Positions 19,037-19,386 of a stretch of DNA of 64,000 bases are shown here, in pieces. The DNA lies in the sequence record PQ741806.1. One strand, given 5' to 3'. Each line of letters opens with the position of its first letter. The first letter of the stretch is position 1. A model generated the notes under the pieces. That model made no database searches. It had not been told where the DNA came from and saw nothing but the letters and a program-made list of their open reading frames with translations. The position numbers were made by a program, and so were the translations under genes. Source of the stretch: Pseudomonas phage Pa_AttikonH10.

Positions 19037-19122
19037 AATCTTTTCCTCATTATAAAAGGATAAATATCTTTATGGTAATCCTGTAATATAGATTTAAATT
19101 AATTTATAATGAATGGCATAAA

Positions 19123-19141
19123 GGAGCCCCTGGTGGGCTCC
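19123..19141. terminator. Hairpin GGAGCCC-CTGGT-GGGCTCC inside a divergent intergenic region
   Basis: 7-bp GC stem. TTTAAT follows on the plus strand and TTTATGCC on the minus strand. No protein gene is positioned to use it, so it may terminate the candidate ncRNA. Confidence 0.45.
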
Positions 19142-19142
19142 T

Positions 19143-19330
19143 TTAATGTAATAGGTCCGACCCCTATCTAGAGGTCGGTGAGTAGCAAGGCACCGTAGTT
19201 GGGGTTCGTGTCGTTCCTGACGATACTTTAGTACCCCGGTTTATTTACGACTGGATCACCCCCTTAAAGTGCAGTGCGTTTTACGCAAACTGCCTTGCTC
19301 TATATCATTGCACTGTGCGTATTTTTATTC
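19143..19330 (-). ncRNA. Candidate structured non-coding RNA (about 190 nt), or a structured regulatory region
   Basis: ORF-free segment that is visibly GC-richer than its flanks. It has a long-range pairing, GCAAGGCA (~19186) with TGCCTTGC (~19303). It has local stems: CCGACC/GGTCGG, GGGG/CCCC and GCGTTTTACGC. On the minus strand it ends with hairpin GGAGCCC-ACCAG-GGGCTCC followed by UUUAU (19123..19141). It could not be folded as a tRNA. Confidence 0.25.
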
Positions 19331-19386
19331 GTTAGCTAATCTTATGACTTAGAGTTATATTTACATACCCCTTAAGGAAAAATGCA

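What the first reader, a model, noticed from the sequence alone, without database searches (positions are those of the whole stretch)
19037..19386. ORF-free, GC-enriched, highly structured 200-nt element with its own hairpin in a divergent intergenic region: candidate ncRNA
The 350-nt gap between the divergently transcribed operons (18641..19036 minus, 19387.. plus) is not simply AT-rich promoter DNA. Positions ~19143..19330 are clearly GC-richer than the rest of the window. This segment has a long-range helix, GCAAGGCA at ~19186 pairing with TGCCTTGC at ~19303. It has several local stems: CCGACC-11nt-GGTCGG, GGGG..CCCC and GCG-TTTTA-CGC. Read on the minus strand it ends in a GC hairpin (19123..19141) plus a UUUAU run. 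A terminator-like hairpin here serves no protein gene. It is best explained by a small RNA of ~190 nt transcribed on the minus strand, or by a structured leader or regulatory RNA. A TATATTAC-type motif lies just after it (19083..19090, minus strand), upstream of gene 18641..19036.
Basis: seen in the sequence. Interest (0 to 1): 0.55.

Follow-up and report, generated by a model that had tools for sequence, protein, structure and literature searches.

The report
Jumbo-phage small RNA matching ribosome tail
The GC-rich gap between phiKZ genes 203 and 204 encodes an unannotated, structured small RNA of about 150-190 nt, conserved in related giant phages, whose one invariant stretch is complementary to the 3' end of the host's 16S ribosomal RNA, so it may act directly on ribosomes.

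Summary
The window is Pseudomonas phage phiKZ. Window 19308-19115 (minus strand) is a discrete gene: an nvRNAP-type start motif (ATGATATAG), a closing helix P1, hairpin P2, a conserved unpaired block, a variable domain, hairpin P5 (followed by a published orphan RNA 3' end) and a phiKZ-type terminator.

I found 15 diverse homologues (PhiPA3, PA1C, HPP-Temi, Phabio, 201phi2-1, Noxifer and metagenomic jumbo phages). Helices are rewritten by compensatory changes (93-99% canonical against 35-70% in controls; 0 shuffles reach the observed values). A covariance model built without phiKZ recovers the window element at E~1e-13. Rfam and ARAGORN find nothing, and no paper I could search describes it.

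The only invariant block, AGGRGGUGAUCCAG, is the reverse complement of the 16S rRNA 3' end. phiKZ has a 21-nt duplex; the next best in the window is 12 nt. Positions 3-18 are pairable in 14-15 of 15 members, and they vary only by wobble-compatible transitions. No ORF follows the block.

Best explanation, inferred and not shown: a trans-acting RNA that binds the anti-Shine-Dalgarno tail of 30S subunits. A 5'-leader role for gp203 is excluded.

The parts
19115..19308 (-). Whole sRNA gene module, from start motif to terminator tail. The predicted primary transcript is 19301->~19115 (about 187 nt). The major mapped 3' end at ~19153 gives about 149 nt.
   Evidence: Homologous modules of 151-195 nt occur in 15 phage genomes or contigs. 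CM R1, built without phiKZ, hits window 19304-19117 (-) at 75.9 bits, E~1e-13. nhmmer gives E=9e-25.
19300..19308 (-). Promoter/start motif ATGATATAG. The predicted TSS is the A at 19301.
   Evidence: The motif is invariant in 7 members, with TGGTATAG/TTATAG/TGTTATAG variants in others. Noxifer, L136 and L138 have the canonical phiKZ TATG at the same place. ATGATATA occurs only 3 times in the window, and one occurrence (56276+) is the mapped TSS P092 of Putzeys et al.. No TSS has been mapped at the element itself.
19291..19298 (-). P1 5' strand, GCAAGGCA.
   Evidence: It pairs with 19185-19192. It is 97% canonical in 13 distinct members with 3-5 pair types per position; shuffled controls give 56%, and 0 of 2000 shuffles reach the observed value.
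19271..19293 (-). P2 hairpin, GCAG-UU-UGCG-UAAAA-CGCA-CUGC. The outer pairs overlap the end of P1.
   Evidence: The inner stem is 98% canonical against 51% shuffled, with 3-4 pair types at each position.
19246..19266 (-). Block complementary to the 16S rRNA 3' end: UAAGGGGGUGAUCCAGUCGUA. The invariant core AGGGGGUGAUCCA is at 19264-19252.
   Evidence: It forms a 21-nt uninterrupted duplex (G.U allowed) with the last 23 nt of 16S. The next best anywhere in the window is 12 nt, and the maximum in 20,000 shuffles is 15. The 16S end was verified with Rfam SSU and annotated E. coli 16S.
19201..19237 (-). P3 variable domain: GGGGU...ACCCC enclosing two small hairpins.
   Evidence: The equivalent domain in relatives covaries: helices 4 and 5 have 7 pairs with double changes. 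It carries a GNRA-type apical loop (GGGA, GAGA or GUGA) in relatives.
19193..19200 (-). Conserved junction, AACUACGG.
   Evidence: CUAACUACG is conserved in 8 of the 9 phiKZ-type members (phiKZ itself has CCAACUACG; Phabio lacks it). Its function is unknown.
19185..19192 (-). P1 3' strand, UGCCUUGC.
   Evidence: Same as for the P1 5' strand.
19157..19178 (-). P5 hairpin, CCGACCUCU-AGAU-AGGGGUCGG. A published RNA 3' end (T095, phiKZ 213001 +) lies 4-6 nt downstream at window ~19153.
   Evidence: supplement of bioRxiv 10.1101/2023.10.13.562163. P5 covaries in relatives by eye, but MAFFT misaligns it, so no pair statistics were run on it.
19115..19141 (-). Terminator: GGAGCCC-ACCAG-GGGCUCC followed by UUUAUGCC.
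   Evidence: Hairpin+TTATGYY is the recurrent terminator signature of this genome. At this site it is complete on the minus strand only, with dG -15.4. The stem is 99% canonical across members against 70% shuffled.
19346..19346 (+). Context: mapped late TSS of gp203 (P107, phiKZ 212808 -). It shows the element is not in the gp203 5'UTR.
19367..19378 (+). Context: gp203 leader motif ACCCCUUAAGGA (anti-SD-like plus SD), a possible lineage-specific mRNA target of the block.
   Evidence: The duplex with the block has z = -3.8 in phiKZ and -3.2 in PA1C, but about 0 in 10 other members.

Best explanation
Window 19308-19115 (minus strand) is a stand-alone gene for a structured, non-coding small RNA.

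Anatomy: it is probably transcribed by the phage non-virion RNA polymerase from a TATG/ATGATATA-type start site. It ends after hairpin P5 (the mapped 3' end) or at the next phiKZ-type terminator. Helix P1 closes a multi-branch core that holds hairpin P2, a variable domain P3 and, between them, a 16-17-nt stretch with no conserved internal partner.

Proposed action: that stretch (AAGGRGGUGAUCCAGYY) is an over-long Shine-Dalgarno sequence. I propose the RNA acts in trans on host ribosomes by pairing with the 13-nt single-stranded 3' tail of 16S rRNA (the anti-SD) and about 5 further nucleotides of the 3' strand of helix 45. It would occupy or remodel the mRNA-docking site of 30S subunits, and so change which mRNAs can initiate or whether subunits are active.

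Shown: the gene's boundaries, strand, secondary structure, conservation, absence of coding capacity, and the complementarity and its substitution pattern.

Inferred: that the partner really is 16S rRNA, that binding happens in the cell, and what it does to translation.
For: 1. The RNA is real and structured.
- Fifteen homologues have compensatory changes throughout P1, P2, P3 and the terminator.
- A covariance model built without phiKZ finds the window copy at 75.9 bits, E~1e-13.

2. Strand and ends.
- Terminator signature on the minus strand only.
- Orphan ONT 3' end T095 on this strand.
- Start motif shared with the mapped TSS P092, or a TATG in other members.
- RNAalifold -41.6 against -32.4 kcal/mol.
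- 13 G.U cells against 5 A.C cells.

3. It is an independent gene.
- Orientation relative to the helicase gene is inverted in PhiPA3.
- In 201phi2-1 it sits in a gp304/gp305 gap 1.5 kb from the helicase.
- The gp203 TSS lies downstream of the element.

4. Complementarity to 16S.
- The duplex is 21 nt in phiKZ and 14-21 nt in all members.
- The next best in 128 kb of window sequence is 12 nt, and the maximum in 20,000 shuffles is 15.
- Duplex dG is -27 to -41 kcal/mol.
- The Rfam SSU consensus shows that GAUCACCUCCUU is the unpaired tail after h45.

5. Substitution pattern.
- Duplex positions 3-18 are pairable in 14-15 of 15 members.
- The only variable positions are A/G opposite U and C/U opposite G.
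- Beyond position 18 pairing falls to noise.

6. Not an ordinary ribosome-binding site.
- No start codon lies at a functional distance in 10 of 14 members.
- The others have non-conserved mini-ORFs.

7. No conserved internal partner for the block.
- The masking helix predicted by RNAalifold does not covary and competes with P2, which does.

8. From memory, not checked here: synthetic oligonucleotides complementary to the 16S 3' end inhibit initiation (Taniguchi & Weissmann 1978; Jayaraman et al. 1981).
Against: - There is no direct evidence of ribosome binding.
- No TSS was called for this RNA in the ONT-cappable-seq table, and it is not among the published phiKZ ncRNA candidates. Abundance and timing are therefore unknown.
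- Predicted accessibility of the block is only slightly above the molecule's average: 0.43-0.59 against 0.28-0.42.
- Five of the conserved pairs would need the base of h45 to open in a mature 30S.
- phiKZ's own genes use SD sequences (gp203 and gp204 leaders), so a general anti-SD blocker would also hit phage translation. The benefit to the phage is unclear.
- The family was found in only 17 of 75 helicase-anchored jumbo-phage loci, and the cultured members all infect Pseudomonas.
- In phiKZ and PA1C the block also matches the helicase mRNA leader.
- The Pseudomonas 16S end was recalled from memory. It was checked only against the Rfam consensus, E. coli and metagenomic 16S ends.
Confidence: 0.45

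Rival explanations
1. It is a classical base-pairing sRNA whose real targets are phage (or host) mRNAs that carry an anti-SD-like C-rich motif next to their SD, such as the gp203 helicase and gp201 leaders (ACCCC[U/A]UAAGGA). By pairing there it would repress or activate their translation. The resemblance to the 16S complement would follow from the targets being anti-SD-like.
For: - The block pairs with the cognate helicase leader better than with shuffled leaders in phiKZ (z -3.8) and PA1C (-3.2). It is marginal in HPP-Temi (-1.9) and Phabio (-2.0).
- Phabio has CCUCC in the leader and GGAGG in the sRNA, while phiKZ has CCCC and GGGGG.
- The sRNA gene is loosely syntenic with the helicase gene.
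- A second phiKZ leader, at window 21973, carries the same motif.
Against: - Ten of 14 members show no leader complementarity (z between -0.8 and +1.2).
- Leader pairing uses only about 9-11 nt (UUAAGGGGG) and does not explain the invariance of GUGAUCCAGYY in all 15 members.
- Synteny is loose: the orientation flips in PhiPA3 and the gene is 1.5 kb away in 201phi2-1.
Confidence: 0.2
2. It is a structured RNA that works as a protein partner or scaffold, for example by binding a ribosomal or phage RNA-binding protein. The conserved block would be a protein-recognition sequence, or a relic of an ancestral ribosome-binding site or of captured antisense rDNA, and not a base-pairing seed.
For: - The scaffold is elaborate and conserved, with GNRA loops.
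- A second conserved motif, UAUCUAA, is present twice, in the P5 loop and in the junction.
- There is a precedent for an ncRNA using SD/ASD-like sequence to bind bS21: OLE RNA.
- There is weak extra similarity of CUACGG-UGCCUUG to antisense 16S h45/h44 (seen by eye).
Against: - Variation inside the block is restricted to wobble-compatible transitions opposite U and G. That is the signature of RNA-RNA pairing and not of protein contacts.
- There is no conserved internal anti-SD partner that would make an OLE-like SD/ASD duplex.
- A relic would not stay invariant while every helix around it is rewritten.
Confidence: 0.2
3. It is a cis-acting element: a 5' leader, standby ribosome-loading site or attenuator for the gene downstream on the minus strand (gp204 in phiKZ), or a leader of the helicase gene.
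For: In phiKZ, Phabio, L135, L185 and 201phi2-1 a co-directional gene follows within 25-250 nt. In PhiPA3 the helicase gene follows.
Against: - One or two terminators separate it from the next gene, and an RNA 3' end is mapped inside the element.
- gp204 has its own TATATTAC early-promoter motif.
- The downstream gene differs between genomes, and in PA1C the neighbour is convergent.
- The gp203 TSS is downstream of the element on the other strand.
Confidence: 0.07
4. The functional strand is the plus strand: an RNA that mimics the 3' end of 16S rRNA (GGAUCACCCCCUUA) as a decoy for SD sequences, for bS21 or Era, or for rRNA-targeting nucleases. Alternatively the region acts at the DNA level only.
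For: - The plus strand carries CUGGAUCACCCCCUUA, 15 of 16 identical to the 16S end.
- In phiKZ alone the two strands fold equally well (z -4.18 against -4.68).
- Several terminators of this family are near-palindromic.
Against: - No promoter or TSS exists upstream on the plus strand; the only one, P107, is downstream.
- The complete terminator signature, TATG start motifs, GNRA loops, G.U pairs and the mapped 3' end are all on the minus strand.
- The CCUCC->CCCCC change would weaken an SD decoy.
- Rfam's SSU model does not match.
- Covariation with G.U pairs argues against a DNA-only element.
Confidence: 0.05

Closest known systems
Phage-encoded small RNAs of phiKZ-like phages (e.g. the 3'UTR_PHIKZ298 and 5'UTR_p40 candidates of Gerovac 2021, the 17 5'UTR-derived candidates of Putzeys 2024, and sRNA005 of 201phi2-1)
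   Same: A short, structured, non-coding transcript of a giant Pseudomonas phage, conserved among related genera and of unknown function. It was detected, as a 3' end only, in the same ONT-cappable-seq data set.
   Different: - It is at a different locus and is not on any published candidate list I could read.
- It is a stand-alone intergenic gene, not UTR-derived.
- It is supported here by extensive covariation.
- It carries a 16-17-nt conserved complement to 16S rRNA, which none of those candidates is reported to have.
[quoted passage not shown]
   Same: The block contains the canonical SD core GGAGG (GGGGG in most members) and would pair with the same 16S tail, GAUCACCUCCUUA.
   Different: - The complementarity is 14-21 nt, against at most 10-12 nt for anything else in the window, and it runs into helix 45.
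- No start codon or conserved ORF follows.
- It sits inside a closed, structured ncRNA.
OLE RNA P6 SD/ASD mimic that binds ribosomal protein bS21 (PMC12054373)
   Same: A structured bacterial ncRNA that uses sequence identical to part of the translation-initiation pairing system to connect to the ribosome's initiation machinery.
   Different: - OLE carries a 6-nt copy of the anti-SD paired internally to an SD-like strand, and it binds a protein.
- The phage RNA carries the SD side only. The stretch is three times longer, has no conserved internal partner, and is complementary (not identical) to the 16S tail.
Ribosome-associated ncRNAs such as Haloferax Val-tRF (PMC5711459)
   Same: The proposed action is the same in outline: a small non-coding RNA binds the small subunit near the mRNA path and competes with mRNA at initiation.
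   Different: - Val-tRF is a tRNA fragment. It acts independently of SD/anti-SD pairing and is host-encoded.
- Ribosome association of the phage RNA has not been shown.
Protein-sequestering sRNAs RsmY/RsmZ/CsrB
   Same: They are structured Pseudomonas-context sRNAs with SD-like purine motifs exposed in loops or junctions.
   Different: Rsm/Csr sponges need repeated GGA motifs. In 10 of 15 members the block is GGGGG, without GGA. The apical loops are GNRA-type and vary (GGGA, GAGA, GUGA, GUAA).

Membership tests
Any Rfam 15 family (including SSU rRNA 3' end, 6S, tmRNA, riboswitches, group I introns) | Covariance-model score at or above the family's gathering threshold | tested here: not met
   There are 0 hits in the whole window at gathering thresholds. 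In E-value mode on 19000-19420 only chance hits appear, at 16-18 bits against cut-offs of 49-81.
tRNA / tmRNA | Cloverleaf or tmRNA architecture detectable by ARAGORN | tested here: not met
   ARAGORN finds 0 genes in the window.
phiKZ-type transcription terminator | GC-rich hairpin followed by (U)UUAUG(C/U)(C/U), as at the mapped terminator T093 | tested here: met
   At window 19141-19115 (-) the hairpin has dG -15.4 and is followed by UUUAUGCC. The same signature recurs at about a dozen other sites in the window.
phiKZ nvRNAP (middle/late) promoter | TATG-type motif with the TSS at its end; an experimentally mapped TSS | tested here: inconclusive
   The motif is present: ATGATATAG, identical over 8 nt to the mapped TSS P092, and TATG in Noxifer, L136 and L138. 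No TSS is listed at phiKZ ~212,850 (+) in the tables I could read.
Stand-alone trans-acting base-pairing sRNA | Own transcription unit, independent of the flanking ORFs | tested here: met
   Start motif and terminator travel together. Orientation relative to neighbours changes between genomes. A 3' end is mapped inside the element. No conserved ORF is present.
Stand-alone trans-acting base-pairing sRNA | Conserved single-stranded seed with conserved complementarity to a target | tested here: met
   The invariant block is complementary to the 16S 3' end in 15 of 15 members, and its substitutions are wobble-compatible. Single-strandedness is only weakly supported by thermodynamic prediction.
Stand-alone trans-acting base-pairing sRNA | Demonstrated interaction with and regulation of the target; chaperone (Hfq/ProQ) dependence | not testable with these tools
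   This needs binding assays or interactome data.
Ribosome-associated ncRNA (rancRNA) | Physical association with ribosomes or subunits | not testable with these tools
Cis-regulatory 5' leader / riboswitch of gp203 | Lies between the gene's TSS and start codon, on the same strand | tested here: not met
   The gp203 TSS is at window 19346, which leaves a 41-nt 5'UTR. The element lies upstream of it on the other strand.
Rsm/Csr protein sponge | Multiple conserved GGA motifs in loops or single strands | tested here: not met
   The core is GGGGG in 10 of 15 members. The apical loops vary as GNRA-type.
OLE-like SD/ASD duplex mimic | An SD-like strand paired internally to an anti-SD copy | tested here: not met
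   No conserved internal partner exists. The candidate helix (CACUGC:GGGGGUG) shows no covariation, is absent outside the phiKZ subgroup and competes with the covarying P2.

The most novel reading that the evidence does not exclude
Giant phiKZ-like phages encode a dedicated RNA that captures the anti-Shine-Dalgarno tail of host 16S rRNA. It would use the 13-nt tail as a toehold to open the base of helix 45, and so silence, reprogram or protect 30S subunits during infection. That would be the first natural 'anti-anti-SD' RNA and an RNA-based route to ribosome takeover.
Probability: 0.35. Interest if true: 0.9.

Novelty: new variant of a known kind. Interest (0 to 1): 0.78.

Why it matters
phiKZ is the model nucleus-forming jumbo phage, and how it takes over translation is an open question. 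So far only proteins have been implicated, such as the ribosome-binding PHIKZ014.

A conserved, covariation-supported RNA gene that was missed by three transcriptome studies would add a new player. Its one invariant feature is a 16-17-nt match to the ribosome's mRNA-docking tail. If it does bind 30S subunits, it would be a natural counterpart of the synthetic anti-16S oligonucleotides that block initiation, and a new principle of virus-host conflict at the ribosome.

Even if the target proves to be something else, the family is a well-defined structured RNA suitable for an Rfam entry. It is also a tractable subject for the antisense-oligomer and Grad-seq tools that already exist for phiKZ.

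Tried and rejected
- Rfam, in gathering and E-value modes, and ARAGORN found nothing.
- The generic sigma-70 promoter and terminator scan was uninformative for this phage.
- The metagenome and genome pattern scans were too loose. About 120 of 126 loci were chance hits or genuine 16S ends, and only L027/L074 (the same sequence as L007) and L077 were real homologues.
- Plain MAFFT misaligns P2, P5 and the 3' third of phiKZ. mafft-qinsi is not installed. I therefore used a MAFFT alignment of 8 well-behaved members for the unbiased pair counts, and hand-defined helices with my own shuffles for all members.
- RNAalifold's 'helix 3', which would mask the block, was rejected. It does not covary, is absent outside one subgroup, and conflicts with P2.
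- The SD-like block as a real RBS was rejected, because no conserved ORF follows.
- An Rsm/Csr sponge was rejected, because GGA is absent in most members.
- The helicase leader as the family-wide target was rejected, because pairing is significant in only 2-4 of 14 members. My first attempt at this test had a slicing bug and is void.
- Single-sequence folding cannot assign the strand in phiKZ.
- The accessibility calculation was inconclusive.
- Supplements of Wicke 2021, the journal version of Putzeys 2024 and the 201phi2-1 paper are not held. I could not check for a TSS, or for an sRNA call at 201phi2-1 229,016-229,202.
- blastn with the two divergent subtypes found no cultured phage.
- CM R1 with default filters does not reach the L007/L077/L154 subtype.
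Full report
**Identity of the window and the locus.** The 350-nt gap is 100% identical to Pseudomonas phage phiKZ and to about 40 near-identical isolates. Locally, phiKZ coordinate = 232154 - window coordinate. The gap lies between PHIKZ204 (window minus strand, 18641-19036) and PHIKZ203, a DEAD/DEAH (SNF2-like) helicase annotated as a virion protein (plus strand, 19387-21498). 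Nothing is annotated in the gap in any of the records.

**Check of the observation.** GC content rises to 0.47-0.51 at 19100-19300 against about 0.31 around it. The arms of the long-range helix are at 19185-19192 and 19291-19298. Both strands fold better than dinucleotide shuffles, with z between -3.4 and -4.7 and 0 of 200 shuffles as good. Rfam finds nothing at gathering thresholds in the whole window and only chance matches in permissive mode. ARAGORN finds no tRNA or tmRNA.

**What transcriptomics already says.** In the supplement of Putzeys et al. (bioRxiv 10.1101/2023.10.13.562163), the late promoter P107 of gp203 has its TSS at phiKZ 212808(-), which is window 19346(+). The gp203 5'UTR is therefore only about 41 nt, and the structured block lies upstream of it. 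The same tables list a termination site, T095, at phiKZ 213001(+). That is window ~19153 on the minus strand, inside the element, and it is assigned to no promoter or transcription unit. The RNA is not among the ncRNA candidates of Wicke 2021, Gerovac 2021 or Putzeys 2024. Eight literature searches found no description of it. The TATATTAC early-promoter motif in front of gp204 also has no TSS call in that table. The TSS list is therefore incomplete, and the missing TSS for the sRNA is weak negative evidence.

**Homologues.**
- blastn showed partial 65-85% matches in an otherwise unalignable intergenic region of PA1C/PS119XW, HPP-Temi/phiHQ, PhiPA3 and Phabio.
- Reading those loci revealed a shared module.
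- Pattern scans added an uncultivated viral contig (L007) and a metagenomic contig (L077).
- Fetching 75 loci around homologues of the helicase added 201phi2-1, Noxifer and five more uncultivated phages. nhmmer then added L154.
- In RNA orientation every copy is 151-195 nt from a start motif to a terminator tail.
- 58 of the 75 helicase loci have no copy within 4 kb.

**Structure and covariation.**
- On a plain MAFFT alignment of eight members that excludes phiKZ, the RNAalifold consensus has 93.4% of cells paired and 13 pairs with changes on both sides.
- None of 500 column shuffles reaches the observed pairing, double-change or covariation values. Sliding the 3' partners by 1-3 columns drops pairing to 35-45%.
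- Hand-defined helices across 13 distinct members are compared with column shuffles below; no shuffle out of 2000 reaches the observed value.

| Helix | Observed canonical | Shuffled |
|---|---|---|
| P1 (8 bp) | 97% | 56% |
| P2 inner stem | 98% | 51% |
| Terminator stem | 99% | 70% |

- P1 exists in at least six completely different sequence versions: GCAAGGCA, AAGAAGCA, GUUGGUAG, UCGUAGGU, GUACAGGC and CACUGGUAG.
- A covariance model built from the eight-member alignment recovers the window element on the minus strand, full length, at 75.9 bits (E~1e-13). It is the best hit in 624 kb.

**Which strand.** Single-sequence energies do not decide. The comparative evidence does.
- RNAalifold gives -41.6 kcal/mol for the sense strand and -32.4 for the antisense on the same alignment.
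- Structure cells contain 13 G.U pairs, which are compatible with the minus-strand sense only, against 5 A.C.
- A GC hairpin followed by TTATG(C/T)(C/T) is the recurrent terminator signature of this genome. At the element it is complete on the minus strand only. It matches the mapped terminator T093.
- The mapped 3' end T095 is on this strand, 4-6 nt after hairpin P5.
- Directly 5' of P1 there is ATGATATAG, or a canonical TATG in Noxifer, L136 and L138. ATGATATA occurs three times in the window, and one of the other two occurrences is the mapped TSS P092.
- Several apical loops are GNRA tetraloops on this strand only.

**An independent gene.** With the element held in one orientation, the helicase gene is divergent in phiKZ, PA1C, HPP-Temi and Phabio but tandem in PhiPA3. 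In 201phi2-1 the element lies in an unannotated 320-nt gap between gp304 and gp305, 1.5 kb from the helicase. The start motif and the terminator always move with the structured body.

**The invariant block.** Every helix is rewritten, but one stretch between P2 and the variable domain does not change: AGGRGGUGAUCCA, usually UAAGGRGGUGAUCCAGYY. I recognised it as the reverse complement of the 16S rRNA 3' end and then checked that against real data.
- Rfam's SSU model aligned to a genuine 16S end (L011) shows h45 closing with ...ggugcgGcug, followed by 13 unpaired nucleotides, GAUcACCUCCUUu.
- The recalled 51-mer matches annotated 16S rRNA in all 5,426 E. coli genomes at 96% identity, end to end.
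- In phiKZ the block (window 19266-19246, minus strand) can form a 21-nt uninterrupted duplex with the last 23 nt of 16S, with G.U allowed.
- The next longest such run anywhere on either strand of the 64-kb window is 12 nt. 20,000 shuffles of the RNA never exceeded 15.
- All 14 members tested have 14-21 nt (10-17 nt with Watson-Crick pairs only), with duplex energies of -27 to -41 kcal/mol.
- Position by position across 15 members, duplex positions 3-18 are pairable in 14-15 members.
- The only variable positions within that span are A/G opposite a U and C/U opposite two Gs. Pairing drops to noise from position 19.
- This is the pattern expected for pairing with an invariant partner. It fits the minus-strand RNA pairing with 16S better than a plus-strand mimic.
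- The conserved span covers the whole single-stranded tail except the last base, plus five nucleotides of the 3' strand of h45.

**Alternatives for the block.**
- It is not an ordinary ribosome-binding site. Ten of 14 members have no start codon within 15 nt downstream, and the four that do have non-conserved 11-20-codon ORFs.
- It is not an Rsm/Csr site. Ten of 15 members have GGGGG without GGA.
- It has no conserved internal partner. The helix proposed by RNAalifold (CACUGC:GGGGGUG) does not covary, is absent outside the phiKZ subgroup, and competes with P2, which does covary.
- Thermodynamic accessibility is only mildly above average, 0.43-0.59 against 0.28-0.42. I count this as inconclusive.
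- A rival target exists in phiKZ itself. The gp203 leader (ACCCCUUAAGGA, 19367-19378) and a second leader just upstream of gp201 (21973) are anti-SD-like and complementary to the block.
- That pairing is above shuffled background only in phiKZ and PA1C (z -3.8 and -3.2). It is marginal in two members and absent in ten. It cannot explain the family-wide invariance of GUGAUCCAGYY.

**Most likely mechanism.** Shown: a conserved, structured, non-coding, stand-alone minus-strand RNA gene whose only invariant segment is complementary to the 16S 3' end. Inferred: the RNA binds the anti-SD tail of 30S subunits, possibly opening the base of h45, and so competes with SD-dependent mRNA docking or otherwise changes subunit activity.
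- From memory, not checked here: synthetic oligonucleotides complementary to the 16S 3' end inhibit initiation.
- Points against the mechanism are the lack of any binding data, the unknown abundance and timing, the need to melt part of h45, and the fact that phiKZ genes themselves use SD sequences.
- I put this mechanism at about 0.45. The statement that this is a genuine sRNA gene on the minus strand I put at about 0.9.

**Comparison with known systems.**
- It resembles other phage sRNAs in kind, but it is at a new locus and is much better supported by covariation.
- It uses the SD/anti-SD pairing system without being an mRNA.
- OLE RNA's P6 is the nearest structured-ncRNA analogue. It carries a 6-nt anti-SD copy paired internally and binds bS21. 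The Haloferax Val-tRF competes with mRNA on the small subunit, but not through SD pairing.
- It fails the defining tests for every Rfam family, for tRNA/tmRNA, for a gp203 leader, for an Rsm sponge and for an OLE-like duplex mimic.

**Verdict.** This is a real, previously undescribed jumbo-phage sRNA family, as far as the searchable literature and Rfam 15 go. The conserved complementarity to the ribosome's mRNA-docking tail makes it unusually interesting and directly testable.

Noticed in passing
window 23948/23971, 52378/52401, 62849/62872, and also 3615, 7491, 25778, 32987, 59111: phiKZ terminators are GC hairpins followed by TTATG(C/T)(C/T). Several are palindromic (CATAAnGCCCTCCC...GGGAGGGCnTTATG), so they carry the signature on both strands and look bidirectional.
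   Followed up: partly
window 19083-19090 (-): The early-promoter motif TATATTAC upstream of gp204 has no TSS entry in the Putzeys 2024 promoter table, which shows that the table is incomplete for this region.
   Followed up: partly
window 19367-19378 (+) and 21973-21984 (+): Two late-gene leaders, gp203 and apparently gp201, share ACCCC(U/A)UAAGGA: an anti-SD-like run fused to the SD, containing the palindrome CCUUAAGG. Both are complementary to the sRNA block. Phabio's helicase leader has CCUCCUUAAGGA, an exact copy of the 16S tail.
   Followed up: partly
window 19157-19178 (-); L002, L003, L005, L135, L158 homologous P5 loops: In relatives the P5 loop carries YUAUCUAAU, and the same heptamer UAUCUAA recurs in the junction 5' of the P1 3' strand (GUAUCUAACUACGG). 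The phiKZ P5 loop instead contains the reverse complement, UAGAUA, as if the hairpin had been inverted.
   Followed up: no
window 19289-19298 (-); same position in L007, L154, L141, L136, L138: In every lineage the last 2-4 nt of the P1 5' strand can alternatively pair with the 3' strand of an outer P2 helix (GCAG/CUGC, GUAG/CUAC, GG/CC). This could be a conserved conformational switch right next to the 16S-complementary block.
   Followed up: no
L163 ~8330-8400 (+): A distant jumbo phage (helicase 37% identical) has TATG-GAGUCGACGAACUAAAGGAGGUGAUCC, then about 15 nt, then a terminator hairpin plus UUAUGCCG, with no start codon. It may be a minimal ~70-nt version of the same idea.
   Followed up: no
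L007 2730-2760 and ~2960-2990 (+): The sequence AAGTATTTGTTTGTGTA upstream of the sRNA start motif is duplicated just after the sRNA terminator, in front of a second ...TATAG. This suggests a repeated promoter module in that phage.
   Followed up: no
window 56276-56283 (+): The ATGATATA site that matches Putzeys' TSS P092 (phiKZ 174427) lies 1,444 bp away from where the local coordinate conversion predicts. The window genome and the AF399011 numbering therefore differ by an indel somewhere between 19 kb and 56 kb.
   Followed up: no
L002 2700-5129: In PA1C the helicase homologue is annotated as two overlapping CDSs (1,044 nt and 2,172 nt). This suggests a frameshift, an intron or an annotation split in that genome.
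   Followed up: no
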